A stretch of DNA of 64,000 nt, taken from Scyliorhinus canicula. Taxonomy: Eukaryota. A program made the position numbers and the translations under genes. The stretch covers positions 66,240,621 to 66,304,620 of the forward strand of contig NC_052154.1 of the NCBI RefSeq assembly GCF_902713615.1, given 5' to 3'. A model generated the notes under the pieces. The model saw only the letters and a program-made list of their open reading frames with translations, ran no database searches and had not been told where the DNA came from. Below are positions 7,757 through 42,658 of the stretch, in pieces; the stretch's first letter is position 1; each line of letters begins with the position of its first letter.

Positions 7757-10700
7757 TGTGGTGAATGTGATTCACACTATATATAGTTGCCAATATCACT
7801 CCATGTATATATGTTCGTTATCTACCCGTTGTAAGATCAATGCTGTATATAGTTGCCAATATAACTCCGTGTATATATGTTCACTATCCACCATTGTAAG
7901 TGCAGTTGCACTATCCGACCACCAGGGGGAGTCGCTCTGGGAGTACGCGAGAGTTTGTACTGGGCTCCTCCCTTGGCTCCGCCCAGGACTCCTCCCCCTG
8001 GGACCGATGTATAAACACCAGTGCCTTAGAGCCAGCCTGCCAGTTCATCTGAAGTTCAACGACGAATAGGCTGGCTCTGTTGTAAGTGTATTAAAGCCTC
8101 TGTTCAAATCCAACTACACATGTTCGCTGAATTGATGGTTCCATCAATTTAATACACTTAAGAAGCTGCCGAAGTAAAGCATGGAATCCGCTCTAAAACC
8201 AGAACGTCTAGAACTCGATCCGCAGGATGCAGAGGCGAAAGAAACCATCTGTCACTGGCTGAAATGTTTTAAGGCCTACCTGGCCCAGATCAGCACCGCT
8301 GAAACTACGGAGGAACAAAAGCTCAGCCTACTGCACGAAAGGGTAAGCCACAGAATTTCGACACAACTAAATCCAGCCGGTTCCTACACCACAGCGCTGG
8401 CGATTTTGGACAAAATGTATATTAGGCCCATGAACAAGGTCTTTGCCCGCCATGTGTTCACGACTCGCCAACAACGGTCTACCGAAACTTTAGCTGAATT
8501 TGCACGCGAGTTGAACAATCTCTCAAATGACTGCAATTACCAGGCTGTAACCGCGGCCGAACATAGGGAGCTTGCTGTGCGGGACGTTTTTGTAGCGGGC
8601 CTTCGATCTAACTATGTACGCCAGAGACTATTAGAAAATGGGGCCCAGGGCTTAGAGACTACCGTAGAGGCTGCTATCACAATGGAAGTTTCCTTCCGCA
8701 GCCTCAACTCGTTTCCCGCGGACCCCGCTAACCCCGCATGGGCCCCCGACCTGAGGATCCCTCAAGCCTGTGCCGCAAGGCCCCCCAGCTATCGCGCGGC
8801 CACAGCCGGTCGCCCTACTGTCCCAGTCAACTACTCAAGCTATCCAGCTGCTCCAGATAATTACTCAGCTCCCCCAGCCAGCTACTCAGCTTGCCAAACC
8901 AGTTATTCAACTGCTCCAGCCTGCCACTATTCAGCTCCCCAAACCAGTTATTCAACTGCTCCAGCCTGCCACTATTCAGCTCCCCAAACCAGTTATTCAA
9001 CTGCTCCAGCCTGCCACTTCTGTGGACAAAGCCAGCACCCGCGGCAGCACTGCTCAGCCCGATCCGCGACCTGCAGCAGCTGCGGTAAGAAAGGCCACTA
9101 TGCCAGAGTGTGCCACTTCTGTGGACAAAGCCAGCACCCGCGGCCTGCAGCAGCTGCGGGAAGAAATGCCACGATGCTAGAGTGTGCCCCGGCAGAAGGG
9201 TCCCAGGCCTCAACACCCCAACAGCCCAAAAACATCGCCCCCAGCACCAGCAGGCCCGCGGGGCCCGAAACGCTGCGGCCTATGCTCAGGCTCCGCACCC
9301 TCCTGCCACGTGCGATCCATGGGGGCCGCCATCTTGGCAAACCTCCACCATGCGGCCGGCCACGTGCGATTCATGGGGGCCGCCATCTTGGACGCCATCT
9401 TCATCACCACCCTCCACGTGCGATCCACGGGCCCAAGCTGCATCCCCAGTCTCAAACAGCTCATCGGAGGAGTACGACCTCCCCGGGCAGTCACCACATG
9501 GCCCGCAACTCAGCGCAGTGTTCCTGCATCAAGCTCGCCAGAACGCAGCGGCATCTACTCGACAGGACGCCCGATCGGAAGAATTCGACTTTTCCGGGCA
9601 CCCACCACGCGGCCCGCAACTCAACGCGGTCACCCTCGACCAATCTCGCCCCAAGCATCTGAGAAATTCGATGACGGAGGTCCAGATCAACGGGTACAAC
9701 ACGTTGTGCCTCTTCGACTCCGGGAGCACAGAGAACTTCATACACCCAGAGCTGGTAAGACGCTGTTCCCTCCCTATTTATCCCGTCAACCAAACTATCG
9801 CCCTCACTTCGGGCTCCCATTCCATCCAAATCCAAGGCCGCACTACAGCAACGCTAACGATTCGAGGCGCTAGCTATTCCAAATTTAAACTGTATGTCTT
9901 GCCCGACCTCTGCGCGCCACTCCTCTTAGGCTTGGATTTCCAATGTAATCTCAAGAGTCTCACCCTCAGCTTCGGCGGGCCCCTGCCCCCACTCACTATC
10001 TGCAGCCTCGCCACGCTGTGCATCGCCCCCCCCCCCCTCTTCGCCAACCTCACCCCGGATTGCAAACCGGTAGCCACCCACAGCAGGCGGTACAGCCTGC
10101 AGGATAGGGTATTTATCAGAACGGAGGTCCGAAGGCTGCTCAGTGAGGGGATCATAGAGGCCAGTAACAGTCCCTGGAGAGCTCAGGTGGTGGTCGTCAA
10201 GACCGGGGAAAAATTCCGCATGGTCATCGATTATAGCCAGACCATCGATCGCTTTACGCTCCTAGACGCGTATCCCCTCCCCAGAACTGCAGACATGGTA
10301 AACCAGATCGCCCAATATCGGGTATTTTCCACGGTTGATCTGAAGTCTGCATACCACCAGCTCCCAATCCGCCCGGAGGACCGCCACTACACGGCCTTCG
10401 AGGCCGATGGCCGCCTCTTCCATTTCCTCCGGGTTCCCTTCAGCGTCACTAACGGGGTTTCGGTGTTCCAACGAGCAATGGACTGAATGGTAGACCAGTA
10501 CGGGCTGCGGGCCACGTTTCCGTATCTGGATAATGTTACCATCTGCGGCCATGACCAGCAGGACCACGACGCCAACCTCCACCGTTTTCTCCAGACGGCC
10601 CAAAAATTAAACCTTACATATAACAAGGAGAAATGCGTGTTCCGCACAAACAGACTAGCCATCCTCGGCTACGTCGTGGAGAACGGAGTCCTGGGCCCAG

Positions 10701-12905
10701 ACCCGGACCGCATGCTCTTAGAACTCCCCCTCCCCCATGGCCCCAAGCCCTCAAACGGTGCTTGAGGCTCTTTGCGTACTACGCCCAGTGGGTCCCCCAA
10801 TATGCGGAAAAAGCCCGCCCACTCTTCAAGGCCACACTATTTCCCCTGTCTGCTGAGGCGCGCCAGGCCTCCAGCTGCATCAGGGATGACATCGCCAAAG
10901 CAGCCATGCGGGCGGTGGATGAAGCCACTCCCTTTCAGGTTGAGAGCGACGCCTCAGAGGTAGCGCTAGCAGCCACTTTAAACCAAGCAGGGCGGCCCGT
11001 TGCATTTTTCTCCCGTACCCTATCCGCTTCAGAACTCCGACACTCCTCAGTCGAGAAGGAAGCACAAGCCATCATGGAGGCTATCTGACACTGGAGGCAC
11101 TACCTCACAGGTAGGAGGTTCACCCTCATTACCAACCAACGGTCGGTCACCTTCATGTTTGACAACTCGCAAAGGGGCAAAATTAAAAATGACAAAAGTC
11201 TTCGGTGGAGGATTGAACTCTCCACCTACAATTACGATATCAAATATCGACCAGGGAAGCTCAACGAGCCCTCGGATACCCTATCCCGCGGGACATGCGC
11301 CAGCGCGCAAATCAGCCGTCTAAAAGCCATCCACGATGACCCCTGCCACCCAGGGGTCACCCGGCTCGTCCACTACATCAGAGCCCGAAACTTGCCTTTC
11401 TCCAACGAGGAGGTAAAAGCGGTCACCAGGGACTGCCCGATCTGTGCGGAGTGCAAACCGCACTTCTATAGACCAGACAGGGCCCACCTGGTCAAGGCTT
11501 CTAGGCCCTTTGAACGCCTTGCGATCGATTTCAAAGGGCCACTCCCCTCCACTAACAAAAACATTTACTTCCTTAACATTATTGACGAGTTCTCACGATT
11601 CCCCTTCGCCCTCCCATGCCCCGATATGACCTCCCACACAGTGATTAGGGCCCTGCATAGTGTCTTCACCCTGTTCGGTTTCCCCAGCTACGTGCACAGC
11701 GACCGGGGTGCGTCCTTTATGAGTGACGAGCTGCGTCAGTACCTGCTCGACAAGGGCATCGCCTCGAGCAGGACTACCAGCTACAACCCCAGGGGGAATG
11801 GACAGGTGGAGAGGGAGAAAGCGACGGTCTGGAAGACCGTCCTACTGACCCTCAGGTCCAGAAAGCTCCAAGTTTCCCAATGGCAGGAAGTCCTCCCTGA
11901 CGCACTCCATGCAATTAGATCCCTCCTGTGTACAGCTACCAACCAAACCCCCCACGAGCGGCTCTTCATTTTTTCCAGGGGCACTACCACAGGGGTCTCA
12001 CTTCCGGCGTGGCTGAGGACCCAGGCCTGGTTCTCCTAAGGAAGCACGTCAGGGCGCACAAAACCGACCCCCTTGTTGAAAAGGTGCGCCTGCTTCATTC
12101 CAACCCACAGTACGCATCTGTTGAGTTCCCGGACGGTCGCCAGGACACAGTATCCCTCCGGGACCTGGCACCCGCTGGATCCAGCCCCCCATCTACCCCC
12201 ACCGAGGAACTCCTTTCCCCCTTCCCTATGCGGCCGCCCCCTTGCGCCCCCGATTCTGCGAGCTCACCCCACCAGTCCCGAGCGCCAGCACCAGCCCGCC
12301 CCCCGTGCCCCCAGTCTCCATTCGACCAGGAGGTGTATGAGGCTTGGACAAGACTCGCCCCGGACCCAGCAACCGTACCCCAGACCTCGACGCCCGCCCA
12401 GCCACCGCAAGAGGCTGCAACCCCGGTGCTCCGCAGATCAAAACGGACAATTTGTCCACCGGACAGACTGACTCTTTGAGCCATCACCCCCGCCGGACTT
12501 GATTTTTTTAACAGGGGGTGAATGTGGTGAATGTGATTCACACTATATATAGTTGCCAATATCACTCCATGTGTGTTCGTTATCTACCCATTGTAAGATC
12601 AATGCTGTATATAGTTTCCAATATAACTCCGTGTATATATGTTCACTATCCACCATTGTAAGTGCAGTTGCACTATCCGACCACCAGGGGGAGTCGCTCT
12701 GGGAGTACGTGAGAGTTTGTACTGGGCTCCTCCCTTGGCTCTGCCCAGGACTCCTCCCCTGGGACCGATGTATAAAGATCAGTGCCTTTGAGCCAGCCTG
12801 CAGTTATTTGGATTTCAACGAAGAATAGGCTGGCTCTGTTGTAAGTGTATTAAAGCCTCTGTTCAGATCCAACTACACGTGTTCGCTAAATTGATGGTTC
12901 CATCA
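7757..12905 (+). mobile_element. Ty3/Gypsy LTR retrotransposon, family A copy 1 (full length, defective)
   Basis: TG..CA LTRs at 7757-8146 and 12523-12905. Gag from ATG 8181 with zinc knuckle (CSSCGKKGHYARVC), protease LFDSGS, RT (YPLP..DLKSAYHQ..YLDN), RNase H (VESDAS), integrase (HPG..CPIC, IDFKGP, SDRG). PPT ACAGGGGGTGAA. Internal stops and frameshifts. Confidence 0.97.
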
Positions 12906-13292
12906 CCTCAATTAATGCATTTTTCTCTTGCCTAGTTTGCCCATTGATGGTCTGGTGATGATCATCAATGATCGGTAGAGCACCTTTCCTCCTGTACTCT
13001 AGATTGCTATCTCCGGGTACACTGGACAGAATATCCTATTCCCAAAAAGATCCTCTGAGACCCTCAGATTATAGTGTCTGGTGCCAAGCTCACCCATTCC
13101 ACCTCTGGTTTTCCAAGATAGATTGCTGTGAAACTCAACTTGAATACCCAAGCAAAGGGACCCAGAAATACTAAGGAAGGCGGCCAGTTGCTCTAGCGTT
13201 TTAAAACAAGTCTGATACATTGTTTAGACCAGTGCGAAGCTGGGGAAAAGATCACCCAAAAAACGATGGCTAGAGGACAACTGAGTGTACTT

Positions 13293-14705
13293 AAAATTAG
13301 TTTGGATATTGGGTGGCGAACGTGGTGATGATTCGCAGGTGGGTGACGGAAGGGGAGGGTGACGCATGGAAGAGATTGGAGGTGGCGTCCTGTGTAGGTA
13401 CGAGTTTGGAGGCTTTGGTGACGGCCCCACTTCCACTCCCCCCGGCAAAGTACTCCACGAGTCCGGTGGTGGTTGCGTCCCTTAAAATCTGGGGACAGTG
13501 GAGGCGGCATAGGGGGGAAGTGAAGGCCTCAGTTTGGGCCCCAATACAGGGCAATCACCATTTTGCGCCGGGTAGAACGGGTGGGGGATTTGGGAGTTGG
13601 AACAGGGCAGGGATCAGACAGTTTGGGGACCTCTTCTTGGATAGGAACTTCGCGACTCTGGAGGAGCTGGTGGGGAAGTGACACCTCCCCCCCGGGAACG
13701 CTTTTAGGTATATGCAGGTCAGGGCATTTGTTAAGAGGCAGGTGGCGGAGTTTCCGCGGCTGCCACCAAGGGGGTTGCAGGATAGGGTGCTTTCGGGGAC
13801 GTGGGTCGGTGAAGGAAAAGTCTTGGCTATTTACCAACTGATGCAGGAGGAGGAGGCGGCCTCAGTAGAAGAGCTCAAAGCGAAGTGGGAGGAAGAGCTA
13901 GGGGAAGAGACTGAAGATGGAACGTGGTCGGACGCCCTGGAGAGGGTGAATTCCTCCTCCTCTTGCGCACGGCTCAGCCTAATTCAGCTGAAGGTGCTGC
14001 ACAGGGCTCACATGACAGGGGCAAGGATGAGCCGGTTCTTCGGAGGGGAAGACAGGTATGGGAGGTGTTTGGGAGGCCCGGCGAACCACACCCATATGTT
14101 CTGGGCTTGTCCGGCCTTGGAGAGGTTTTGGAAGGGGGTGGCGGGGACTTTGTCGGAAGTGGTCGGGTCTAGGGTCAAGCCGGGCTGGGGGCTCGCGATC
14201 TTTGGGGTAGCTTCGGAGCCGGGAGTGCAGGAGGCGAGAGAGGCCGGCATTCTGGCCTTTGCGTCTCTAGTAGCCCGGCGCAGGATTCTGTTACAGTGGA
14301 GAGATACGTGGCCCCCGAGTTCGGAGGCCTGGATCAACGACATGGCTGGGTTCATCAAGTTGGAGAGGATGAAGTTTGCCCTGAGGGGGTCGGTACAGGG
14401 GTTCTTTCGGCGGTGGCAGCCCTTTCTCGACTTCCTGGCGAAGGGGTAGAGAGTGGTCGGTCTCAGCAGCAACTTGGGGGGCGGGGGCGGGGGGGGGGGG
14501 GTTTGGGGATGGTTAGGGGGTTTGTTCTTGCGGCGGTGGGTTTGCTATGTTGTTATTTACTTCTTTCTTGTATTGCTGTTGGTTTTTTGTTGTTATTTAT
14601 TTTGGGGGGGGTGAGTTCTTTTCTTGTGTTGGTGTGGAAACACGCCTTGTTTGTTTTAAATTGTGGGGAGAAAATTTGTTATTGAAAAACTTGAATAAAA
14701 ATTAT
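13293..14705 (+). mobile_element. L1/Tx1-clade LINE, 5'-truncated ORF2 C-terminus and 3' UTR
   Basis: 245-aa ORF 13712-14449 with LIQLKVLHRAH and HMFWACP (L1 C-terminal Cys-rich region), G/T-rich UTR and terminal AATAAAA. Confidence 0.85.
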
Positions 14706-14751
14706 TTTTTTTAAATTTGATGTACAATATTTATCCATCTTCTATCTATCA

Positions 14752-15070
14752 CTGGCACAGAGGTTAGCACTGCTGCCTCACAGCTCCAGGGACCCAGTTA
14801 CAATTCTGGCCTCGGGTAACTGTGTGTGTGCAGTTTGCACGTTCTCCCTGTGTCTGTGTGGGTTTCCTCCGGGTGCTCCGGTTTCCTCCCACAGTCCAAA
14901 GATGTGCTGGTTAGGTGGATTGGCCATGATAAATTGCCCTTAGTGTCCAAAAGGTTAGGTAGGGTTACAGGGTTGGGGTGGAGGTGTGGGTGGGGTAGAG
15001 TGCTCTTTCCAAGGGCAGCTGCAGACTCGATGGACCGAATGGCCACCTTCTGCAATGCAGGCATTCTGTG
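14752..15070 (+). mobile_element. tRNA-derived V-SINE with CR1-like tail
   Basis: TGGCACAG..TTAGCACTGCTGCCTCACAG head, GGGTTTCCTCCGGGTGCTCCGG core, GACCGAATGGCC tail. Further copies on - at ~230-490, 15590-15790, 26262-26430, 55810-56115, 57842-58140, and on + at 24289-24500 and 25118-25330. Confidence 0.88.
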
Positions 15071-16160
15071 ATTTGTCCCTCTGTATTTAGGAATTCATTT
15101 TTGTTTTCAAGTCAATACAGCATTGTGATTTCATTCCCTCTCCTTCCAAATATTGTGACATTTGACTGCCATCTATAGACTAAGGGCCAAATTTTGTCCT
15201 GTTTCCACCCCCCCCCCCCCCCCCCTCCTCCTCGCCAGAATGTGTTTTCTGAGGGCGGAGGCAGCTCCCATTTGCTGCCGACGGGAACTTTAGGGGGTCC
15301 TGCTGATGCCTACAGCATTTTGCATGGGTCGCCCAACCCCCCTCGCCAGGTAACCCATCACGAGGTGAGTTGCCTTCGGGGGGACCAGTAGATCCCGCAA
15401 ACGAGATGGGTTGCCAAATCCTACCCTAAACATTACCAAATAAATGGAATAGATATAGGAAACGCTGGACTTACTCATGGCTTCTGGAGAGAGGGAAACG
15501 AAATGAACATTTCAGATCAATGGCCTCCAGTCAGAACAAAGGGTCATCAGAGCTGTTGAATACTTCCTCGGCATTTTCAGGTTTTTTTTATTTTTCCAAT
15601 TAAGGGGCAATTTAGTGTGGCCAATTCACCTACCCTGCACATCTTTGGGCTGTGGGGGGGGGGGGGGGGGGGGGGGGGACGCACGCAGACATGGGGAGAA
15701 TGTGCAGACTCCACACAGACAGTGACCCAGAGCCAGGACTGAACCCGGGCCCTCGGCGCCGTGAGACAGTAGTGCTAACCACTGTGCCGCCAAGCCATCG
15801 CGCATTTTCTGTTTTTATGTCGGGACTGGAGGTCCAGTCCCCCAGCCGTGTGTTTCTTGGCAGCAAGTCATTCGCTGGTGACATTCGCTGCTTGTCAATC
15901 GGATTTCCATTGAAGCCACCCCACACCAGCCTGTGGGCGAATGTGCACTGCCAGCGGGAAAAGAGAATCCCAACGGCTGGAGAATTCCGGCTCATGTATC
16001 CAGCTGTCACAACATTCTGCTTTTGTATCAAGTAAATTCAGCCTGGATTATTTTTTCCGTCATTAGGCTAAATGGGAATATCATAATTAATCATTCCCAT
16101 TAAATTGCATTTGAGTTTTTGCAATAGAATTAGCACAGACGACAACATTAATCCTCCAAT

Positions 16161-16294
16161 AAATTAACAGTAAAATACTGAGTTGCTATAAATCTGAAAT
16201 AAAAACAGAAAATGCTAGAAAATCTCAGCAGGTCAGGCAGCATTTGTGGAGTTAACAGAGTTAACGTTTCGAGTCCATATGACTCTTCTTCAAA
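16161..16294 (-). mobile_element. Short Penelope-derived retroelement with degenerate hammerhead motif
   Basis: Flanked by 14-bp direct repeat ATTAATCCTCCAAT (16147-16160, 16295-16308). Minus strand reads TTGAAGA-AGAGTCATATGGACTC-GAAACGTT. Related pieces at ~15480-15580, ~34018-34048 and ~35180-35310. Confidence 0.65.
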
Positions 16295-16496
16295 ATTAAT
16301 CCTCCAATCATTTACAGCCCAGGGGAGTCCACACTGAATAAAATAAAAGAAACAAAGTTTTTATTTACAGCACTATATATACACAGCACAGTAGATCCCT
16401 ATCGGGTCCTTTTTGGTTGGTGCCTCCCTGGCCGACCTTTTATACAGAGGTCAATAGAGATCTCCCGCCCCTTGCAGGGAAGCTTGTACTCCACAA

Positions 16497-17032
16497 CAGT
16501 GTTTTTCAAACTTTTTTTCCGGGGACCCATTTTTACCAACCGGCTAACCTTTGGATCCAACCCACCGACCTTCACGACCCACGCCAGCCGACCTTCACGA
16601 CCCACGCCGGCTGACCTGCGCGACCCACGCCGGCCGACCTGCTTGACCCACCATTTTCTCTTTCCTTGTTTGTTGCTGACAAAAATGGAGGAAGTGGTTT
16701 TGGGTCCCTTTGGGCCCAGTGGTCCCTTTGGCCCCCAACTTGTAAAAAAATGACTGCGACCACATAAAAAAGAAATGCGGCTGCACTGCGCATGCGTGCC
16801 CGATCATCGCATTTTGCGCATGCGCACTGATGACCGTTCACGCATGCGCAGTGCGGCTGCATTTTTTTCTATCTGTTCCTATTTTGAAGGTGACTCGCAG
16901 CCAGCGTTATTAAAAGCCGGCTCTTGCACGTGGATTTGCGCAATCGGGAGCACCGCGACGGACGGCTCCCCGAACCTCCCGACACCCGCCCGTGACCCAC
17001 CCGCGCCAAGTCCCCGAATTTGACAATGCCTG
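16497..17032. mobile_element. hAT-type non-autonomous DNA transposon (MITE)
   Basis: Imperfect TIRs CAGTGTTTTTCAAA / TTTGACAATGCCTG and a perfect 8-bp TSD CTCCACAA (16489-16496, 17033-17040). Internal GACCCACGCC repeats. Sits inside an LTR-like sequence (~16320-17095, minus). Confidence 0.85.
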
Positions 17033-18799
17033 CTCCACAAGACCCATGGGGAAGATAATCATTCCCACTCCATAGGCCCCGCGCGGGTTATTACAGAAAC
17101 CATATCCAGGCAAGCACAACCTTGGGCTGTCCCAAGGAAAGGAGGACTTTTTTCTTTAGGGTTTGAGGGAGGACTGGATGCTTAGATATTCTTTGTGTTA
17201 CCTCAGATGTTTCTCGGAAGACACAAAGAACCTCATTTATTTGAAAGTATCTTCAGTGATGTATTTTTTGCATATGAACCTACATTTGGAAGTCAGGCGT
17301 TAGAGTTCCCTTGGAGTAGAATTGGACACACTTGCGAGTCCCCTGCAAAATATTTGCAACCTTATGGTGTTAGTCAGGCTCTATATCAACATTTTATTTG
17401 CTCTTTAACTGTTTGGTGAAGTTAACCATTGTATTTTGACTTATTTATGCTATGTTGTATTTTCTTAAATATGGGGAAGAATTTTAAGTTCCCCTGCTGC
17501 TGGGTTTGTAGGCGGGGAGTGAGGGGCGAGCGCTTGCCACCCTGAAAATTCAGACCCAAGTCTTGTTTATGTTACACATAAAAATACAAAGGATGGCAAA
17601 ACAGATAGTAAAACTTACAAAGATGGAGCTTCAGAAGAAACTTGCAACAGATATCAAATCAAACAACATTTTTACCATTGTGTGTGTGGTGGGTGGGGGG
17701 GGGGGGGGTGAATGGCATTCAGGATCAATGTGGGCCACTTAAAAACTGATAATAGGGATACTGTCAATGAAAAGAAGGAAATAGTGGATAGGCTGAATAA
17801 TTACTCAACTGTACTGCCTGAAAGTGGCCGAAACTTAATAACTTCCGAATGGGAATTTGATAAATACTTGAAAAAGGAAAATTTGCAGGGTTATGGGAAA
17901 AGAGCAGGGAATGAGATTGATTAAGTGGCACCACCAAAGAGTCAGCACAGGCCTGATTGGCCGAATGGCCTCTTTCTGTCATTTTATGATTTTACATCTA
18001 ATGTATGCTTGAGTCTGATACAATGTGTTCAAAAGTATGGAATGTTTTAGGCTGAACCACTCACATTCACCATCATTCTTACAAGAAATACTTTTTCAAA
18101 TGCATAAACCGTCTATATTTGGGCGCAGATGGAATTTGCTGCCTTTGTTGAAAGATGTCTGAGACATTCAGCAATTAATTTCAGTTCTGGTCAGTATGAG
18201 CTGCAATGAAACCTAGGCCAAATCAAACTGGATGGACAGTTGGTCCAATAGGATACGGTTTACCTTATTGAATGACTTTGGTTCCATTAGCTTTCCTTTC
18301 TCAACAAAAATATTTTGACAAATCAGGAAAATGTATTCTTTTATTATCTCTCAAGCCCTAAGCAATTTATTTAATTTCCTGAGCAAATCAGCATAGAGAC
18401 AACAACCTAACATTGGTTTAATAATCTCCACATGTTTTCCCTTCACAATAATTTAGAGCCAGAAATCTCTATTCGTTCCTGAGTTTATTTTTCTGTTATA
18501 CTTTCAAATTAGGGCCTTCCATCCACAGCCAATTTAGCAAGAAGGTCAAGATAATTTGTTGTGTCAAGGACTGTACATTATACATTAGGGCTTAATTTTA
18601 CAAAATGTTCGGAAACGTACTTACCGGAACAACTGATTTGGTGTTGACATACCAACCATCTATGATTCAAAGATGCAGGAACAAAACATTCTGGGGCTGA
18701 ATTGCCAAATAAGGTTTTCCTTTCTCTCCCTGAATTCACTAAAATATAGTTAAATTATTTATCTGTAGCCAGTCTGATCCGAAAACCGTTCATTTATTC

Positions 18800-24104: not shown

Positions 24105-24129
24105 AATAACATGAAGCTAATGCAGTGTA

Positions 24130-31590: not shown

Positions 31591-31634
31591 TGATATCAGC
31601 TAAATGATTGCTTTTGAAAGAAAGCTTGAGTGAG

Positions 31635-31956: not shown

Positions 31957-32116
31957 ATGTTTAGAGTTGTGTTGTTGTGCTGGAGCCTGCAGATGGTTCA
32001 GGTCGTTCTCACCAGGACTGCAGAGAATGAGCTGGACTTGACCTTGATGCCGAATGACGCTCCATACAGCGACCTTGCTCTGTTGAGCAGGGTCCAGACC
32101 CTCCTGCCTGCCGCAG
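31957..32116 (+). CDS. agrp: Agouti-related peptide, coding exon 1 (signal peptide and pro-region)
   Basis: Pyrimidine tract and AG acceptor at 31950-31951, ATG at 31957, hydrophobic N-terminus MFRVVLLCWSLQMVQVVLT, donor CAG|GTGTGT at 32117. 160 nt, phase 1, joins in frame to the next exon. Confidence 0.85.
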
Positions 32117-32913
32117 GTGTGTGTTTGAACTGTTTGTGTCTCACTCTGCGCTTGTCTGTGTTAGTCCAGGAGTCAGGCAAGTAAATGCCCGCCGCTTCAC
32201 CCACAATTGGCAGTCAAGTGGCACTTTCAGGAGCTTAGAACAAATGGGTCACAAAATCGACTTAAAAATGATTGTCCTTATCGAGAGGGAGTGAGTAATT
32301 TCTGAGTTTGTAAAGCAAACGTCCTCACTACTTGAGTAGCTGGGCAGTTGCAAAATTCTGTTCTAAGTTGCAACATTTACCTCAGATCTCTGAGCTTGCA
32401 TTCTGATTTTCGCATTGAATCAATTATTTTGTCTCATATTTACTTCAAATGTATCAACAAACAAGTAACCTTTAATTTATTAAGAGTGGGCGGACTTCTT
32501 CTGTTGCTCACAGGAGGATATTGTTTTTATAATAGTTTTGTCCCTCTTCCCTCCATCGACTGTTCATTTCCCGCTCTGCTTTTGTCAAGTTTCTTTTTGA
32601 CTTGTCTCCGTCAGTTTTCTCCTGTTTCTCTCTCAGTTCCTGTATTGTGCTTTCCCCGCCTCTCCTCCGCCTAACCCCCACTCGATAGATATCCTGCTGG
32701 GAAGAGACGGTGCATAAAGCACGATTCTTTCAACTATCCCTCATTGTTTAAAATTGCAAAATATGCCGTCCTGGTAGAGACAAGAATGCATGTTGATTTC
32801 GAAGAATCTTCATTTTTAGTAAGAATCAAATCAAAGCTGAGTGTTTCACTATCTGACCTTGACCAAGTAGCATCTTGCAAATTAATTTAACGTTATGTGA
32901 TTCTGTAATCCAG

Positions 32914-32999
32914 GTCCACTGTCCAGCCCCGCATTGGACGGAGCAGTGGGTTCAGTTCAGGAGGATCGTGTGTCAGAGAACATCATGCTGGAACCTCAG
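32914..32999 (+). CDS. agrp: Agouti-related peptide, coding exon 2 (acidic pro-region)
   Basis: CAG acceptor 32911-32913, 86-nt open exon (G)PLSSPALDGAVGSVQEDRVSENIMLEPQ, donor CAG|GTAGTT at 33000. Phase 1 in, phase 0 out, matching both neighbours. Too short for the ORF track. Confidence 0.8.
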
Positions 33000-33228
33000 G
33001 TAGTTGCAATTTTCACACAGCAACAACGCAAAGCAGGATGACTGTTGCTGTGTGATTAACGTAGTTCAATTTTTATTACAGATAAGTATAGACTCTTAAT
33101 AATAATTTTTCAAATGTTGTGCAGATCGGCCTATTTGTATGATTGAATGAGATTTTGTGAAATTCTTCTGTTACATTGACTTGTCAGCACAGGCTCAGTT
33201 AGCAGCACTCTCACCTGTGAGGCACAAG

Positions 33229-34602
33229 TGGACTAGATTCTCCGTTTTTGAGGCTATGTTCCCACGCCGGCGTGGGAACAGTGGCATTTTACGACATAAA
33301 AAGTGTAAAACAGCGACCGATCCTCCGATTGTCTGGAGGCTAGCATCAAGGCAGCGTAGAGCACCCAGCTCTACCTGCTGATACGGCCCAGAGAATTGCC
33401 AGGTCTGTGCCTGCGCAAGCACACAGTGGTGGCCTGCAGCGACACGGCAGCGGCCGCTCGGGGACTCGGCCTGCAAAATAGTGCCCCTCTTTGGCTGGCT
33501 CGTGCGCCCTGGACCACCCCCCAACAGTGCCCCCGGCCCCTGGCAAAGTCCCCCCTGCTCGCGGATCAGCCTCCCCGGCTGCTACACCGAGTTCCCAATG
33601 GATGAGACCACACGCGACCTGCGTTGTCGGGAACTTGGCCGGTCAGGGGCGGACCATCGGGAGGTGAGCCTCAGGCAATGTCCTGAGGCCATCAATATGG
33701 CGCATGGCGTACTTTCCGAGTACGCTGCTTTGGAGGGGGCGGAGCATCGTGAACGAGGCGCTGCACCCGATCCGCTCATGAACGGGGTTTCTCCGGCTGA
33801 TCACCGAACACGATTTTGGCGTCAGTGACCGGAGAATCCCGCCTAAGGTTTTGGGTTTGCATCCCAGCTCCGTACTGAGGGAGAGATGAGGTTTTAGACT
33901 GAGGCTCCACCTGCGTGGATGTACAATAAAAATCTCATTGCACTATTTGGAAGGAGCTGGAAAGTTATCCCAGAATTAATATCCTCGGTCAACGTCAGAA
34001 AAGCAGATCATCTGGGCTCTGAAGAAGTTATATGGACTCAAAACGTTGAGTGGAATTCTCCCAAGAAATTACTTTGCGGCGTGAAAACCGGTGAAAATCT
34101 CGGCCACAATACCACCGTGATTCCCCTCGGAATTCTCCCACATGTAACTTGGGGAGGCTCCCGTTGGGAAACAGATGTGCAGGACATAAAGACACCACCA
34201 GACCACCTCCTCGGAGATAGGATGCCCCAATGCCTCAAATTCCAGACGTACCCATAGCCCCTCTCCTCCTACTTACCAGCAGAACATCCTCCCCCCACTC
34301 TCAGGCATCAGTCCCCACCCCCATCGCTAGTACCAACCACCCCCCCCCCCCAAGTGACCAACACCACGAAGGCCCCTCCTTTAAGGTCCTCCCCTCCATG
34401 TTCCACTTCATGCCCCCACCTCTCAATACCCCTCCTTTCTAGGCCGTGACCCCTCTCAGGTCCCACCCCCTTGGCAATGCCCCATGGTACCCTGGCAGTG
34501 CCTCTGAGTCCGCACTTTCGGAGGCTGCTGACACCGGAGTGGTTCGCGCCGGTTTTCCCACCGGCATGGGGACTTAGTCCCCAGAAAGGAGAATCCCGCC
34601 CA
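33229..34602. mobile_element. Two GC-rich Harbinger-like MITEs in agrp intron
   Basis: ~33229-33844 (GATTCTCC..GGAGAATCCCGCC) and ~34048-34602 (GAATTCTCC..GGAGAATCCCGCCC) share the same TIR family. Confidence 0.6.
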
Positions 34603-36007
34603 GTGTCTCTAGGCAAATATTTTAGCAAAGATCCTGGAGTGACTGGGATTCACGTGGTAACCAACATGCGAGATAAGTGTAAATTGAATGTCCTGCAGTC
34701 ACATATTCAGGAGCTGAATGTTTTTAAATAAATAGTGCAGGATTTATAAAGGAACCCAAGGAAGTAGTACAAGGAATAAGAGCGACAAGGAGCCCACACT
34801 TCAAATTTAGATTTTCCTAATCAGTGATATATTACAACGGTGGGGCAAATTAATTCCTGGAACATGGGCTTCACGGGCAAGGCTGGTGTTTTATTGCTGA
34901 CCCATCATTGGCCCTGAAAAGGTGGTGATGAGCCTTCTTCTTGAACCACACCATTCCGTGTGTGAAGGTGAACCCTCAGGCCTGTTAGGGAGGCAGCTCC
35001 AGATTTTTCACCCGGTGATGATGAAGGAATGGTGTTACACGTCCAAATTGAGATGGTGTGTGGAGGCCGCAGGCTTTTAGGTGGTGGAGGCCGCAGGCTT
35101 TTTAATACAGTACAGGATAAGAGATTAATCCATGAGTTAGGGAAGCATAAAATAAAACGGGTGTCATTTATTTAATCCAAAAACAAAATGCTGCAAATGC
35201 CAGAAATCTGATATGAGGAAGGATCGTCATCACCCCAAAACATTAATTCTGTTTCTCTCCACAGATGCTGCCTGACCTGCTGAGTATTTCCAGCATTTTC
35301 TGATATTTATTTAGTCACTGGGAAAAAAAACGCCCTGGCCCCAAAATACAATTTGAGAGAATGGATATTATTTTTTAAATCCCAGCATTCAATGTATTTT
35401 TTTCCCAACTTTGTATTAAAAATCCTTAAAGTTATAGGCAGGGAGCCAGTTGACTAGTTGGCTCAAGCGTGGTGCAAAATAGCAGCAACAGAGTGAGTTC
35501 AATTCCCCGTACTGGCTGAGGTAATTTTTTGGGCCCCTCTCCTGGCCTTGCCCCATTGTGATATCATGGTATAAATGATGATTATCAGCCCTCAAACAAT
35601 GAGGACATTAAATGAAGAGAGCCAGAGAAAAGCATTGGCAAGGTGAATTCTGGGATAAGTAGTTACAGTGCTAGCATTCAGAAGCAGGGAATTGTGTGAA
35701 CTGAACAAATATTTGAAAGAAAATCTATAGAGAGAGATAAATGTTTGGAAAAGCTGCCCTGGGAGTCTATCAAGGCTGCTTAACATCACTCATTTAAGTG
35801 GGTTCAGACAGGCATTTGATGAGAATTTAGAGATATAAGTAGGGAACTGTGTGTTTTATTACTGGCTGGCGAGATGCAACAAAATGATCTTGTCAGATCC
35901 TGTGTGTCTGTCTATTGTTCGTGTTTCACTATTAAATGCAATTGTTCATTAACTGCTGCAATATGAAGAAATGGTGTGCTTTTCTGATCTTTAAATTTGC
36001 TTTGCAG

Positions 36008-36196
36008 GTAATATCCAATGCTCTGGAGATAGAGAGATCAGAGCGTTCGCCCAGGAGATGTGTCCGACACTTGGAATCCTGTTTTGGTCATACTCTGCCT
36101 TGCTGTGACCCATGTGCCATTTGCTATTGCAGGTTTTTTAATGCCATTTGTTACTGCAGGAAGATCGGCAACAGCTGTCACCAGGGCAAGAGTTAA
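36008..36196 (+). CDS. agrp: Agouti-related peptide, last coding exon (cystine-knot agouti domain)
   Basis: TTTGCAG acceptor, then VISNALEIERSERSPRRCVRHLESCFGHTLPCCDPCAICYCRFFNAICYCRKIGNSCHQGKS-stop. Ten Cys, C-x6-C-x6-CC spacing, RFF melanocortin-receptor loop and RSPRR processing region, very close to the mammalian AgRP C-terminus. The three exons total 435 nt = 144 aa + stop. Confidence 0.96.
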   Translation, partial: VISNALEIERSERSPRRCVRHLESCFGHTLPCCDPCAICYCRFFNAICYCRKIGNSCHQGKS

Positions 36197-36297
36197 TTTT
36201 GTACTTATGTTGTGTGCTTGAATATGTTTCTGTAGGGAGCATATGCACAAATTTATGTTATTTGTTTTTTGTGTCTTGCTTGTAATGTAAGAGTTAA

Positions 36298-36303
36298 AAT
36301 AAA
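36298..36303 (+). terminator. Putative agrp polyadenylation signal
   Basis: AATAAA ~100 nt after the stop codon, with GT-rich sequence further downstream. Confidence 0.6.
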
Positions 36304-36499
36304 CTTACGACACACGTTTCAGAAAAAAATAGACGTGTTTATGGCTGTACCACGAAGATTTTCTTTATTTGAGACATGTAGACATTGTAGGACTTTGTAA
36401 CTATTTTGGGGGAAATTTTAAAACTACACTTCTTAAATGTGTCTCAGAAAAGGTCAAAAAAATATTTCTATAAGACATCAATCTCAGGCTTAATTACAA

Positions 36500-37612
36500 T
36501 GCAGGATATCAGTACAGGGATGGTGGCAGGATACCAGTACAGGGATGGCCGCAGGATACCAGTACAGGGATGGTGGCAGGATATCAGTACAGGGATATTC
36601 GCAGGATACCAGTACAGGGATGGTGGCAGGATCCCAGTACAGGGATGGTGGCAGGATCCCAGTACAGGGATGGTGGCAGGATACCAGTACAGGGATGGTC
36701 GCAGGATACCAGTACAGGGATATTCGCAGGATACCAGTACAGGGATGGCCGCAGGATACCAGTACAGGGATGGTCACAGGATCCCAGTACAGGGATGGTG
36801 GCAGGATACCAGTACAGGGATGGTGGCAGGATACCAGTACAGGGATGGCCGCGGGATACCAGTACAGGGATGGTGGCAGGATACCAGTACAGGGATGGTG
36901 GCAGGATACCAGTACAGGGATGGTGGCAGGATACCAGTACAGGGATGGTGGCAGGATCCCAGTACAGGGATGGTGGCAGGATACCAGTACAGGGATGGTG
37001 GCAGGATACCAGTACAGGGATGGCCGCAGGATACCAGTACAGGGATGGCCGCAGGATACCAGTACAGGGATGGCCGCAGGATACCAGTACAGGGATGGCC
37101 GCAGGATCCCAGTACAGGGATGGCCGCAGGATCCCAGTACAGGGATGGTGGAAGGATACCAGTACAGGGATGGTGGCAGGATACCAGTACAGGGATGGTG
37201 GCAGGATACCAGTACAGGGATGGCCGCAGGATACCAGTACAGGGATGGCCGCAGGATACCAGTACAGGGATGGTGGCAGGATCCCAGTACAGGGATGGTG
37301 GCAGGATACCAGTACAGGGATGGTGGCAGGATACCAGAACAGGGATGGTGGCAGGATACCAGTACAGGGATGGTGGCAGGATACCAGTACAGGGATGGTC
37401 ACAGGATACCAGTACAGGGATGGCCGCAGGATACCAGTACAGGGATGGCCGCAGGATACCAGTACAGGGATGGTGGCAGGATCCCAGTACAGGGATGGTG
37501 GCAGGATACCAGTACAGGGATGGTGGCAGGATACCAGAACAGGGATGGTGGCAGGATACCAGTACAGGGATGGTGGCAGGATACCAGTACAGGGATGGTC
37601 GCAGGATACCAG
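36500..37612 (-). repeat. Same 25-bp satellite in reverse orientation (~44 units)
   Basis: Tandem GGATACCAGTACAGGGATGGTGGCA, the reverse complement of the left unit. Ends mid-unit (..ACCAG) at the LTR at 37613. Confidence 0.98.
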
Positions 37613-40600
37613 TGATGGAACCATCAATTCAGCGAACAAGTGTAGTTGGATCTGAACAGAGGCTTTAATACACTTACAACAGAGCCAGCCTATTCGTCGT
37701 TGAACTTCAGATGAACTGGCAGGCTGGCTCTAAGGCACTGATCTTTATACATCGGTCCCAGGGGGAGGAGTCCTGGGCAGAGCCAAGGGAGGAGCCCAGT
37801 ACAAACTCTCGCGTACTCCCAGAGCGACTCCCCCTGGTGGTCGGATAGTGCAACTGCACTTACAATGGTGGATAGTGAACATATATGCACGGAGTTATAT
37901 TGGAAACTATATACAGCATTGATCTTACAACGGGTAGATAACGAACATATATACATGGAGTGATATTGGCAACTATATATAGTGTGAATCACATTCACCA
38001 CATTCACACCCTGTTAAAAAAATCAAGTCCGGCGAGGGTGAAGGCTCAAAGAGTCAGTCTGTCCTGTGGACGAATTGACCGTTTTGATCTGCGGAGCACC
38101 GGGGTTGCAGCCTCTTGCGGTGGCTGGGCGGGCGTCGGGGTCTGGGGTACGGTTGCCGGCTCTGGGGCGAGTCTTGTCCGAGCCTCATACACCTCCTGGT
38201 CGAATGGAGATTTGGGGCGCGGGGGGCGGGCTGGTGCTGGCGCTCGGGACTGGTGGGGTGAGCTCGCAGAATCGGGGGCGCAAGGGGGCGCCCGCATAGG
38301 GAACGGGGAAAGGAGTTCCTCGGTGGGGGTAGATGGGGGGCTGGATCCAGCGGGTGCCAGGTCCCGGAGGGATACTGTGTCCTGGCGACCGTCCGGGAAC
38401 TCAACAAATGCGTACTGTGGGTTGGAATGAAGCAGGCGCACCTTTTCAACAATGGGGTCGGTCTTGTGCACCCTGACGTGCTTCCTTAGGAGAAGCGGGC
38501 CTGGCGTCCTCAGCCACGCCGGATGTGAGACCCCTGTGGTAGTGATCCTGGAAAAAATGAAGAGCAGCTCGTGGGGGATTTGGTTGGTAGCTGTACACAG
38601 GAGGGATCTAATTGCGTGGAGTGCGTCAGGGAGGACTTCCTGCCATTAGGAAACTTGGAGCTTCCTGGACCTGAGGGTCAGTAGGACGGTCTTCCAGACC
38701 GTCGCGTTCTCCCTCTCCACCTGTCCGTTCCCCCTGGGGTTGTAACTGGTAGCCCTGCTCGAGGCGATGCCCTTGTCGAGCAGGTACTGACGCAGCTCGT
38801 CACTCATAAAGGACGCACCCCGGTCGCTGTGCACGTAGCTGGGGAAACCGAACAGGGTGAAGACACTATGCAGGGCCCTAATGGCTGTGTGGGAGGTCAT
38901 ATCGAGGCATGGGATGGCGACAGGGAATCGGGAGAACTCGTCAATAATGTTAAGGAAGTAAATGTTTTTGTTAGTGGAGGAGAGTGGCCCTTTGAAATCG
39001 ATCGCAAGGCGTTCAAAGGGCCTAGAAGCCTTGACCAGGTGGGCCCCGTCTGGTCTATAGAAGTGCGGTTTACACTCCGCACAGATCGGGCTGGCCCTGG
39101 TGACCGCTTTTATCTCCTCGTTGGAGAAAGGCAGGTTTCGGGCTCTGATGTAGTGGGCGAGCCGGGTGACCCCTGGGTGGCAGAGGTCATCGTGGATGGC
39201 TTTTAGGCGGCTGATTTGCGCGCTGGCGCATGTCCCGCGGGATAGGGTATCCGAGGGCTCGTTGAGCTTCCCCGGTCGATATTTGATATCGTAATTGTAG
39301 GTGGAGAGTTCAATCCTCCACCGAAGAATTTTGTCATTTTTAATTTTGCCCCTTTGCGAGTTGTCGAACATGAAGGCGACCGACCGTTGGTCGGTAAAGA
39401 GGGTGAACCTCCTACCTGCGAGGTAGTGCCTCCAGTGTCGGATAGCCTCCACGATGGCTTGTGCTTCCTTCTCGACTGAGGAGTGTCGGAGTTCTGAAGC
39501 GGATAGGGTACGGGAGAAAAATGCAACGGGTGCCCTGCTTGGTTTAAAGTGGCTGCTAGCGCTACCTCTGAGGCGTCGCTCTCAACCTGAAAGGGAGTGG
39601 CTTCATCTATCGCCCGCATGGCTGCTTTGGCGATGTCGTCCCTGATGCAGCTGAAGGCCTGGCGCGCCTCAGCAGACAGGGGAAATAGTGTGGCCTTGAA
39701 GAGTGGGCGGGCTTTGTCCGCATATTGGGGGACCCACTGGGCGTAGTACGAAAAGTGCCCCAAGCACCGTTTGAGGGCCTTGGGGCCATGGGGGAGGGGG
39801 AGTTCTAAGAGGGGGCGCATGCGGTCCGGGTCTGGGCCCAGGACTCCGTTCTCCACGACGTAGCCGAGGATGGCTAGTCTGTTTGTGCGGAACACGCATT
39901 TCTCCTTGTTATATGTTAGGTTTAATTTTTGGGCCGTCTGGAGAAAACGGTAGAGGTTGGCGTCGTGGTCCTGCTGGTCATGGCCGCAGATGGTAACATT
40001 ATCCAGATACGGAAACATGGCCCGCAGCCCGTACTGGTCTACCATTCGGTCCATTGCTCGTTGGAACACCGAAACCCCGTTAGTGACGCCGAAGGGAACC
40101 CGGCCATCGGCCTCGAACGCCGTGTAGTGGCGGTCCTCCGGGCGGATTGGGAGCTGGTGGTATGCAGACTTCAGATCCACCGTGGAAAATACCCTATATT
40201 GGGCAATCTGGTTTACCATGTCTGCAATTCTGGGGAGGGGATATGCGTCTAGGAGCGTAAAGCGATTGATGGTCTGGCTATAATCGACGACCATGCGGAA
40301 TTTCCCCCCGGTCTTGACGACCACCACCTGAGCTCTCCAGGGACTGTTACTGGCCTCTATGATCCCCTCACTGAGCAGCCTTCGGACCTCCGTTCTGATA
40401 AATACCCTATCCTGCTGGCTGTACCGCCTGCTGTGGGTGGCTACCGGTTTGCAATCCGGGGTGAGGTTGGCGAAGAGAGGGGGGGGGGGGGCGATGCGCA
40501 GTGTGGCGAGGCTGCAGATAGTGAGTGGGGGCAGGGGCCCGCCGAAGCTGAGGGTGAGACTCTTGAGATTACATTGGAAATCCAAGCCTAAGAGGAGTGG

Positions 40601-42658
40601 CGCGCAGAGGTCGGGCAAGACATACAGTTTAAATTTGGAATAGCTAGCGCCTCGAATCGTTAGCGTTGCTGTAGTGCGGCCTTGGATTTGGGTGGAATGG
40701 GAGCCCAAAGCGAGGGCGATAGTTTGGTTGACGGGATAAATAGGGAGGGAACAGCGTCTTAACAGCTCTGGGTGTATGAAGCTCTCTGTGCTCCCGGAGT
40801 CGAAGAGGCACAACGTGTTGTACCCATTGATCTGGACCTCCGTCATCGAATTTCTCAGATGCTTGGGGCGCGATTGGTCGAGGGTGACCGCGTTGAGTTG
40901 CGGGCCGCGTGGTGGGTGCCCGGGGGAGTCGAATTCTTCCGATCGGGCGTCCTGTCGAGTAGATGCCGCTGCATTCTGGCGAGCTTGATGCAGGAACACT
41001 GCGCTGAGTTGCGGGCCATGTGGTGACTGCCTGGGGAGGTCGTACTCCTCCGATGAGCTGTTTGAGTCTGGGGATGCAGCTAGGGCCCGTGGATTGCACG
41101 TGGAGGGTGGTGATGAAGATGGCATCCAAGATGGCGGCCCCCATGAATCGCACGTGGCCGGCTGCATGGTGGAGGTTTGCCAAGATGGCGGCCCCCATGG
41201 ATCGCACGTGGCAGGAGGGGGCGGAGCCTGAGCATAGGCCGCAGCGTTTCGGGCCCCGCGGGCCTGCTGGTGCTGGGGGCGATGTTTTTGGGCTGTTGGG
41301 GTGTTGAGGGCTGGGACCCTTCTGCCGAGGCACACTCTAGCATCGTGGCCTTTCTTCCCGCAGCTGCTGCAGGTCGCGGATCGGGCTGAGCAGCGCTGCC
41401 GCGGGTGCTGGCTTTGTACACAGAAGTGGCAGGTTGGAGCAGTTGAGTAACTGGTTTGGGGAGCTGAATAGTGGCAGGCTGGAGCAGTTGAATAACTGGT
41501 TTGGGGAGCTGAATAGTGGCAGGCTGGAGCAGTTGAATAACTGGTTTGGCGAGCTGAGTAGCTGGCTGGGGGAGCTGAGTAATTATCTGGAGCAGCTGGA
41601 TAGCTTGAGTAGTTGACTGGGACAGTAGGGCGACCGGCTGTGGCCGCACGTTAGCTGGGGGGCCTTGCGGCACAGGCTTGAGGGGTCCTCAGGTCGGGGG
41701 CCCATGCGGGGTTAGCAGGGTCAGCGGGAAACGAGTTGAGGCTGTGGAAGGAAACTTCCATTGTGATAGCAGCCTCTACGGTAGTCTCTAAGCCCTGGGC
41801 CCCATTTTCTAATAGTCTCTGGCGTACATAGTAAGATTGAAGGCCCGCTACAAAAACGTCCCGCACAGCAAGCTCCCTATGTTCGACCGTGGTTACAGCC
41901 TGGTAATTGCAGTCATTTGAGAGATTGTTCAACTCGCGTGCAAATTCAGCTGATGTTTCAGTAGACCGTTGTCGGCGGGTCACGAACACATGGCGGGCAA
42001 AGACCTCATTCATGGGCCTAATATACATTTTGTCCAAAATCGCCAGCGCTGCGGTGTAGGAACCGGCTGGATTTAGTTGTGTGCAGTAGGCTGAGCTTTT
42101 GTTCCTCCGTAGTTTCAGCGGTGCTGATCTCGGCCAGGTAGGCCTTAAAACATTTCAGCCAGTGGCAGAAGGTTTCTTTCGCCTCTGCATCCTGCGGATC
42201 GAGTTCTAGACGTCCTGGTTTTAGAGCGGATTCCATGCTTTACTTCGGCAGCTTCTTAAGTGTATTAAATTGATGGAACCATCAATTCAGCGAACACGTG
42301 TAGTTGGATCTGAACAGAGGCTTTAATACACTTACAACAGAGCCAGCCTATTCGTCGTTGAACTCCAGATAACTGCAGGCTGGCTCTAAGGCACTGATCT
42401 TTATACATCGGTCCCAGGGGGAGGAGTCCTGGGCGGAGCCAAGGGAGGAGCCCAGTACAAACTCTCGCGTACTCCCAGAGCGACTCCCCCTGGTGGTCGG
42501 ATAGTGCAACTGCACTTACGATGGTGGATAGTGAACATATATATACGGAGTTATATTGGCAACTATATACAGCATTGATCTTACAACGGGTAGATAACGA
42601 ACATATATACATGGAGTGATATTGGCAACTATATATAGTGTCAATCACATTCACCACA
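37613..42658 (-). mobile_element. Ty3/Gypsy LTR retrotransposon, family A copy 2 (full length, defective, inverted relative to copy 1)
   Basis: LTRs at 42271-42658 (5') and 37613-38002 (3'). Gag ATG at 42236, 710-aa PR-RT-RH ORF 39203-41335, integrase ORF 38646-39452, all nearly identical to copy 1. Confidence 0.97.

What the first reader, a model, noticed from the sequence alone, without database searches (positions are those of the whole stretch)
8028..42400. LTR subtypes are cross-paired between the two elements
Seen: the LTRs at 7757-8146 and 37613-38002 are both 390 bp and share CCTGCCAGTTCATCTGAAG. The LTRs at 12523-12905 and 42271-42658 share the shorter CCTGCAGTTAT(C/T)TGGA and TACACGTGTTC. 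Established: the two LTRs of one insertion are identical at integration. Inference: each present-day element is a chimera of two original insertions. This supports the exchange independently of the TSDs.
Basis: partly seen in the sequence, partly recalled or inferred. Interest (0 to 1): 0.7.

Follow-up and report, generated by a model that had tools for sequence, protein, structure and literature searches.

The report
Retrotransposon pair flipped the AgRP gene
Two opposite-facing jumping-gene copies in a shark genome carry each other's ends and insertion tags, likely because they recombined and reversed the 25-kb stretch between them, which holds the appetite gene AgRP; this is a known kind of rearrangement.

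Summary
The cross-pairing is real but rests on one 15-bp LTR patch; TACACGTGTTC is the family's usual state, and whole-LTR distances do not favour the crossed pairs.

The exchange stands on better evidence. The 5-bp target duplications are swapped, while 44 of 44 assessable other copies match within one base. A single-locus 25-bp array is split and half reversed. Contigs of a second organism show the empty site, joining the reverse of 12906+ to 42664+. Interior markers switch reciprocally within pol.

The reversed 24.7 kb holds the whole AgRP gene, now in tandem with ATP6V0D1.

Best reading: inversion by ectopic recombination with conversion (0.84). A misjoin in the assembly is not excluded (0.08), as no spanning reads were available. 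Known mechanism, a clean new case; interest 0.36.

The parts
4488..7756 (+). Left part of a 25-bp minisatellite (about 131 units), the target of insertion 1
   Evidence: TRF; 58 of the 69 genome-wide exact matches of a 30-bp unit pattern
7752..7756 (+). Target duplication 1, first copy (CTGGT)
   Evidence: in phase with all 124 CTGGT words of the array
7757..12905 (+). Element A, Ty3/Gypsy, chimeric: 5' LTR of insertion 1, 3' part of insertion 2; pol broken by stops and frameshifts
7757..8146 (+). A 5' LTR (long-motif subtype)
8288..11278 (+). Stretch of A that shares subtype markers and rare alleles with B (inferred conversion tract; one discordant site at 9422)
9422..11369 (+). Interval in pol between the last marker in parental phase (9422) and the first in exchanged phase (11369)
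   Evidence: each border rests on one site
12523..12905 (+). A 3' LTR (short-motif subtype, GTTAT form); rare T at 12617 shared with B's 3' LTR
12906..12910 (+). Target duplication 2, first copy (CCTCA)
12906..37612 (.). Reversed segment, 24,707 bp
   Evidence: swapped duplications, empty site in organism B, split array
20068..20146 (+). AgRP, first exon of the database protein P0002 (its 26 residues have no match in the seven other cartilaginous-fish proteins tried)
   Evidence: tblastn 100%, GT donor
31952..32116 (+). AgRP exon with the conserved start (ATG at 31957)
32914..32999 (+). AgRP middle exon
36008..36196 (+). AgRP last coding exon (cystine knot, RFF motif)
   Evidence: Pfam Agouti E 3e-15
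36501..37612 (-). Right part of the same minisatellite (about 44 units), reversed
   Evidence: 11 of the 69 matches
37608..37612 (-). Target duplication 1, second copy (CTGGT on minus)
37613..42658 (-). Element B, Ty3/Gypsy, chimeric: 5' part of insertion 2, 3' part of insertion 1; broken by deletions and frameshifts
37613..38002 (-). B 3' LTR (long-motif subtype); rare allele at 37904 shared with A's 3' LTR
39157..41095 (-). Interval in which B changes from insertion-2 type to insertion-1 type
39248..42129 (-). Stretch of B shared with A (inferred conversion tract; B is the likely donor at least in gag)
42271..42658 (-). B 5' LTR (short-motif subtype, GTTAT form)
42659..42663 (-). Target duplication 2, second copy (CCTCA on minus)
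   Evidence: single copy in organism B
49171..49301 (+). First coding exon of a V-ATPase subunit d gene (likely ATP6V0D1), outside the inversion; context only
   Evidence: further exons downstream on +

Best explanation
The two inverted Ty3/Gypsy elements carry swapped target duplications, swapped LTR subtype patches and shared rare alleles, likely because two separate insertions paired and recombined, reversing the 24.7 kb between them, including the whole AgRP gene. Shown: opposite orientation, swapped duplications, one array split in two, the empty site of insertion 2 in organism B, reciprocal markers at the LTR patch and at one pol site on each side, and rare alleles shared by A and B. Inferred: insertion 1 (long-motif subtype) entered the minisatellite just 3' of AgRP, and insertion 2 (short-motif subtype) entered 25 kb away in opposite orientation. 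Homologous repair between the 5-kb arms then crossed over in pol (B changes type between 41095 and 39157). It also copied about 3 kb of gag-pol one way (insertion 2 as donor at least in gag) and, as a separate patch, the first part of one 3' LTR onto the other. If the gag-pol copying was one event, it came early, after about a fifth (0.10-0.33) of the time since insertion.
For: Duplications: A has CTGGT..CCTCA, B has CCTCA..CTGGT; of 56 other two-LTR copies, 44 could be assessed, with 38 exact, 6 with one mismatch and 0 unmatched. Array: all 69 genome-wide matches lie in the two halves, 58 on + and 11 on -, and the break is in phase with a 5-bp overlap. Empty site: in two samples of organism B (one study; 25 differences in 381 bases in one contig), the letters before 42686 match the reverse of 12906-12923 at 18 of 18, with one TGAGG, then 42664-42673 at 9 of 10. 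Markers, 13 short-motif against 10 long-motif copies: 5' LTR patch A=1, B=2; 9422 A=1, B=2 (11 of 12 against 0 of 10); 11369 A=2, B=1 (9 of 12 against 0 of 10); 3' LTR patch A=2, B=1. Conversion: both arms carry the short-motif alleles at 8288-8857; the A-B interior is the closest of 666 pairs (3.30% against a median of 4.46%; rank 4 without CpG sites); A and B share 9 rare alleles, a count reached by 3 of 1431 pairs (mean 1.31); L086, which has the same GTTAT form, carries 1 of the 9 uncommon shared alleles it covers; the 3' LTR T is 3 of 772 exact genome matches, two being A3 and B3. Criteria as in PMC2775673 (passages).
Against: No read spans either element, so the orientation in living DNA is untested. 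The empty site was seen for insertion 2 only, and over a few hundred bases. Each border of the crossover interval is one site; 9422 is a CpG site and could be a back mutation in A; the two further 3' markers (11862, 12062) are weak (long-motif copies carry the same allele in 4 and 5 of 10). Whole-LTR distances do not favour the crossed pairs. Unexplained: the present state puts AgRP in tandem upstream of ATP6V0D1, which I recall as the human and mouse arrangement, so the reconstructed earlier state is the one that differs from mammals. The comparison copies were the search's best candidates, some picked by motif, not a random sample.
Confidence: 0.84

Rival explanations
1. Assembly misjoin: the two insertions and the conversion between them are real, but the assembler placed the unique 24.7 kb the wrong way round between two 5-kb inverted repeats.
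For: Repeats of 6.2 kb (B plus array) and 8.4 kb (A plus array) flank the segment. The longest identical run between the arms (189 bp at 9826) lies inside the switch interval. A misjoin would give the same swapped duplications and markers. The runs listed held contigs only for DNA.
Against: The arms differ at about 3% of sites throughout, and 189 bp is near what such divergence gives by chance (my estimate about 160). Shared rare alleles interleaved with 83 private differences show real recombination between exactly these copies.
Confidence: 0.08
2. One element was retrotransposed from the other's transcript, with template switches to a second RNA, so the shared alleles come from descent; a clean crossover followed.
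For: The family is mosaic: some copies carry LTR and gag markers of different subtypes (L106), and 2 of 40 have discordant motifs.
Against: It needs a landing within 25 kb of the parent in a 4.2-Gb genome and several switches. The rare 3' LTR allele is in both 3' LTRs and in neither 5' LTR, which reverse transcription would not give.
Confidence: 0.04
3. Insertion 1 was a solo LTR, and a replication fork switched templates twice, copying the interior of insertion 2 into both arms while reversing the segment.
For: It explains the shared gag-pol alleles and the shared start of the 3' LTRs in one event.
Against: A and B differ at family-polymorphic sites 9422, 11369, 11862 and 12062, and B has the long-motif-type allele at 11369; divergence over 11287-12522 is 4.13%, near the family median of 4.77%. 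Insertion 1 therefore had its own interior.
Confidence: 0.02
4. No exchange: single LTRs were overwritten by gene conversion, which mimics cross-pairing.
For: Conversion misplaces ERV LTRs while target duplications stay matched (PMC6407205, passages); L020 and L040 look like this.
Against: It cannot swap target duplications, split the array, or give the join seen in organism B.
Confidence: 0.01

Closest known systems
Inversion 2z3 of Drosophila buzzatii, made by ectopic recombination between two Galileo copies (PMC2775673; passages read)
   Same: Two copies in opposite orientation, exchanged target duplications, both copies chimeric, a single target copy in the non-inverted state, crossover placed by variable sites.
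   Different: Here the elements are LTR retrotransposons in a vertebrate and the segment is 24.7 kb. The switch is not clean (141 bp there): about 3 kb is shared one way, plus a second patch.
Post-insertion conversion or rearrangement of proviruses, read from misplaced LTRs and mismatched target duplications (PMC6407205; passages read)
   Same: LTR pairs that fail to group, explained by conversion or by exchange between elements.
   Different: In that canid set all duplications matched, so no rearrangement was inferred; here both partners and both swapped duplications are in view.
Inversion of Agouti exons 1A/1A' within an inverted duplication in mice (PMC2713407; passages read, citing Chen, Duhl and Barsh 1996, not read)
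   Same: Inverted repeats reverse part of an agouti-family locus.
   Different: That is the paralog ASIP, only non-coding exons flip, and a pigment phenotype is linked. Here the whole AgRP gene flips between retrotransposons and no phenotype is known.
Ty3/Gypsy (Metaviridae-type) LTR retrotransposons
   Same: TG..CA LTRs, 5-bp duplications, polypurine tract, protease-RT-RNase H-integrase order.
   Different: Clade not determined. The primer-site position is complementary to the LTR itself.

Membership tests
Inversion by ectopic recombination between TE copies | Two homologous copies in opposite orientation at the breakpoints | tested here: met
   93.7% over 5170 columns, inverted
Inversion by ectopic recombination between TE copies | Target duplications exchanged | tested here: met
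   controls 44 of 44 matched within one base
Inversion by ectopic recombination between TE copies | Both copies chimeric, in reciprocal phase | tested here: met
   LTR patches and sites 9422 and 11369; blurred by shared tracts
Inversion by ectopic recombination between TE copies | Single target copy and the other join in a non-inverted chromosome, site 2 | tested here: met
   organism B, two samples of one study
Inversion by ectopic recombination between TE copies | Single target copy and the other join in a non-inverted chromosome, site 1 | tested here: inconclusive
   No outgroup read; only the single-locus array and its phase
Inversion by ectopic recombination between TE copies | Arrangement confirmed by molecules spanning the repeats | not testable with these tools
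   DNA runs are held as short contigs only
Non-allelic gene conversion between the arms | One-way sharing of alleles that other family copies lack | tested here: met
Non-allelic gene conversion between the arms | Tract borders and number of events defined | tested here: inconclusive
   One tract with a back mutation at 9422, or several patches, both fit
Ty3/Gypsy LTR retrotransposon | Direct LTRs TG..CA with 4-6 bp target duplication | tested here: met
Ty3/Gypsy LTR retrotransposon | Domain order protease, RT, RNase H, integrase | tested here: met
   Pfam on both elements
Ty3/Gypsy LTR retrotransposon | Polypurine tract before the 3' LTR | tested here: met
   purine run before 12523 and before 38002 on minus
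Ty3/Gypsy LTR retrotransposon | tRNA primer-binding site after the 5' LTR | tested here: inconclusive
   Not compared with tRNAs; 13 or more bases there are complementary to the LTR in 37 of 51 copies
Ty3/Gypsy LTR retrotransposon | Placement in a named clade by RT tree | not tested
   The homolog search on RT failed on a frame slip and was not repeated
AgRP (agouti-related protein) | C-terminal cystine knot with RFF, three conserved coding exons | tested here: met

The most novel reading that the evidence does not exclude
The inverted pair is a long-lived recombination switch at AgRP. The patchy sharing records repeated pairing, the segment has flipped more than once or still occurs in both orientations in the species, and each flip moves AgRP between head-to-head with ATP6V0D1 and tandem, replacing everything more than 7 kb upstream of the gene.
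Probability: 0.12. Interest if true: 0.65.

Novelty: new member of a known kind. Interest (0 to 1): 0.36.

Why it matters
The mechanism is textbook, but the case is unusually complete: both partners, both swapped tags, an outgroup empty site and mappable conversion. It shows that LTR dating and full-length calls can mislead, since own-pair divergences (3.9% and 2.1%) fall inside the family range (5-95%: 1.65-5.2%, n=48) although each pair comes from two insertions. The reversed segment holds a whole feeding-control gene, whose upstream neighbourhood changed, so orientation and AgRP expression can be tested directly across individuals and related sharks.

Tried and rejected
Whole-LTR distances and LTR trees as proof of cross-pairing: too little signal (bootstraps had not settled). 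TACACGTGTTC as a marker: usual state. First doubleton count: spoiled by flanking DNA in incomplete loci; redone on trimmed copies, dropping L008, L030, L054 (duplicate loci), L009, L051, L053, L038 and copies lacking an LTR or outside 3.0-5.6 kb; site 10033 (homopolymer) was left out of the sharing count, and a shared allele at A position 1417 proved to be an alignment artefact of A's 74-bp duplication. Joining the flanks of site 2 through a third repeat family: both flanks are single-copy next to the junction. Reads over the A-side junction were not obtained; no contig of the two organism A runs was shown bridging the B junction, which shows nothing. No RNA holder was listed. Older inverted repeats that could explain AgRP's orientation: none seen within 10 kb either side beyond dispersed repeats. 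Papers giving AgRP-ATP6V0D1 orientation in sharks or describing this locus: none seen in the listings; PMC1931611 (passages) names Atp6v0d1 and MKIAA1930 as mammalian neighbours without strand in the text; PMC3397983 (passages) links ATP6V0D2 to AgRP2. Search for discontinuous Ty conversion: 0 papers. Earlier scan findings: none. No supplements were read; figures showing synteny could bear on the orientation question.
Full report
Setting. The window is G000:C9:66240621-66304620, in a genome of 4.22 Gb. A protein encoded in it is identical to a database entry named agouti-related protein of Scyliorhinus canicula, so the host is taken to be that catshark. Self-alignment shows one large inverted repeat, 7757-12906 against 42658-37612, 93.7% over 5170 columns. 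Both arms have TG..CA LTRs and Pfam domains in the order protease, RT, RNase H, integrase, split over several frames: two decayed Ty3/Gypsy elements, A on + and B on -.

The observation. All four LTR coordinates, the two 390-bp lengths and the motifs are as stated. The motif difference marks real subtypes: the short form has 85 exact matches in the genome, and its GTTAT version only 4, of which two are A's 3' LTR and B's 5' LTR. In 38 of 40 other elements the two LTRs agree at this motif within one edit; A and B differ by 5 and 3 edits within themselves. The signal is narrow, however. It sits in LTR positions 284-298. TACACGTGTTC is the usual state (69 of 74 other long LTRs). Summed substitutions are 20 for the crossed pairs, 23 for own pairs and 19 for 5'/5' plus 3'/3'. 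A tree of positions 276-390 joins A3 with B5 (97/86); a tree of positions 1-275 joins A3 with B3 (95/77); neither joins an element's own LTRs. Two controls, L020 and L040, have motifs three edits apart with intact target duplications, so discordant LTRs alone do not prove an exchange.

Proof of the exchange. (1) A is flanked by CTGGT and CCTCA, B by CCTCA and CTGGT. Of 56 other two-LTR copies, 44 could be assessed: 38 match exactly, 6 with one mismatch, none fails. (2) The 25-bp arrays at 4488-7756 (+) and 36501-37612 (-) are one locus: all 69 exact matches of a 30-base unit pattern in the genome lie in them, they share 8 unit variants, and the break is in phase with a 5-base overlap. (3) In two samples of organism B (one study; about 93% identical here), a contig covers 42686-42738 and runs on leftwards with letters that match the reverse of 12906-12923 at 18 of 18, a single TGAGG, and 42664-42673 at 9 of 10. 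This is the empty site of insertion 2 with the other join. By inference the 24,707 bases between the elements were once the other way round.

Where the arms switch. I aligned A and B with 52 other copies and scored sites that separate 13 short-motif copies from 10 long-motif copies. At the 5' LTR patch A is type 1 and B type 2. At 9422 the phase is the same. At 11369 and at the 3' LTR patch it is reversed; two weaker sites (11862, 12062) agree. B therefore changes type between 41095 and 39157, within pol. Each border is one site, and the comparison copies were not a random sample.

The exchange was not clean. At 8288, 8546, 8585, 8611 and 8857 both arms carry type-2 alleles. Their interiors are the closest of 666 pairs, and they share 9 rare alleles, a count reached by 3 of 1431 pairs. 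L086, which has the same GTTAT motif, carries only 1 of the 9 uncommon shared alleles it covers, so most of them likely arose after insertion and were copied across. Segments from 8288 to 10916 are 2.1-3.3% apart (0.8-2.1% of other pairs are as close); 11287-12522 is 4.1% apart (16.5% of pairs). Separately, both 3' LTRs carry a T seen in 3 of 772 exact genome matches, and neither 5' LTR has it. I infer one-way copying of about 3 kb of gag-pol, with insertion 2 as donor at least in gag, and a second patch in the 3' LTRs. Site 9422 is either an unconverted patch or a back mutation. With 10 shared against a mean of 41.5 private alleles per arm, a single gag-pol event would fall at 0.19 (0.10-0.33) of the time since insertion. 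The crossed LTR pairs differ by 1.8% and 3.4%, inside the family range (median 3.1%, n=48), which fits insertions younger than the split from organism B.

What was reversed. The segment holds all four exons of the database AgRP model on + (20068-20146, 31952-32116, 32914-32999, 36008-36196), with 7.2 kb upstream, so the coding gene is intact either way. A V-ATPase subunit d gene, likely ATP6V0D1, starts at 49171 on +. Before the exchange the two genes would have been head-to-head; now they are in tandem. I recall the tandem order from human and mouse; no paper passage I read gives the strands. If the recollection holds, an older flip in the shark line or in bony vertebrates is needed. A RIPOR-family gene lies 2.3 Mb away on +, whereas the mammalian neighbour MKIAA1930 is, as I recall, Ripor1, so the region has been rearranged before. 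This point is unexplained.

Rivals. A misjoin by the assembler would give the same swapped flanks and cannot be excluded without spanning reads (0.08); the conversion signal would stand in that case. Descent of one element from the other's transcript fails on the 3'-only allele and on distance (0.04). A solo LTR with double template switching fails on the four polymorphic sites where the arms differ (0.02). LTR conversion without exchange fails on the flanks (0.01).

Comparison. The case meets the criteria set out for Galileo-made inversions in Drosophila (opposite orientation, exchanged duplications, chimeric copies, single target in the non-inverted state; PMC2775673, passages). The general mechanism is reviewed in PMC8232201 (passages), and the reading of misplaced LTRs in PMC6407205 (passages). 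An inversion between inverted repeats is known at the paralogous mouse Agouti locus (PMC2713407, passages). I saw no paper on this locus in the listings; the library lacks most subscription papers.

Verdict. This is a new, well-documented member of a known kind: an old retrotransposon-mediated inversion with gene conversion that reversed AgRP. Confidence 0.84, interest 0.36.

Noticed in passing
window 8147-8160 and 8082-8094 (same in B and in most copies): The bases right after the 5' LTR are complementary to LTR positions 326-338: 13 or more bases in 37 of 51 copies, never above 8 in 2000 random draws. This resembles self-priming of the Tf1 type (recalled); tRNAs were not checked and the clade is not determined.
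   Followed up: partly
window 49171-49301 and 48745-49080: First coding exon of a V-ATPase subunit d gene, preceded by a GC-rich tandem repeat (81-bp period) with many GCGCATGC words, which I recall as NRF1-type sites.
   Followed up: partly
window 44376-47519 (-): A third, more distant Gypsy remnant (73% to A and B in pol) with protease, RNase H and integrase pieces; a related copy lies just left of the window in the same orientation.
   Followed up: no
window 27145-27720 (+): Copia-type reverse transcriptase fragment (RVT_2, E 1e-13) inside the first AgRP intron.
   Followed up: no
L020, L040: Elements with intact target duplications whose two LTRs belong to different motif subtypes.
   Followed up: partly
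L086 (G000:C18:96684800-96694700): 5' part of this family (92% to A) continues into a 3' part and LTR only about 80% alike: a chimera of two families.
   Followed up: partly
L074/L075 (G000:C5, about 14.679-14.681 Mb): Two 5' parts of this family facing each other 1.3 kb apart.
   Followed up: no
family-wide, e.g. L004, L005, L016-L018: Two LTR lengths, about 390 and about 325 bp; the long form has a 66-bp internal duplication.
   Followed up: no
window 9100-9173, 42082, 40104: Private lesions: a 74-bp duplication in A's gag end; deletions of 26 and 18 bp in B.
   Followed up: no
window 24133-25784 and 50137-51396: Further tandem arrays of 51-bp and 29-bp units; LINE fragments on - near 52669-55195.
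   Followed up: no
G000:C9:63908465-63977617 (+): RIPOR-family gene 2.3 Mb from AgRP, suggesting an older rearrangement of the block.
   Followed up: partly
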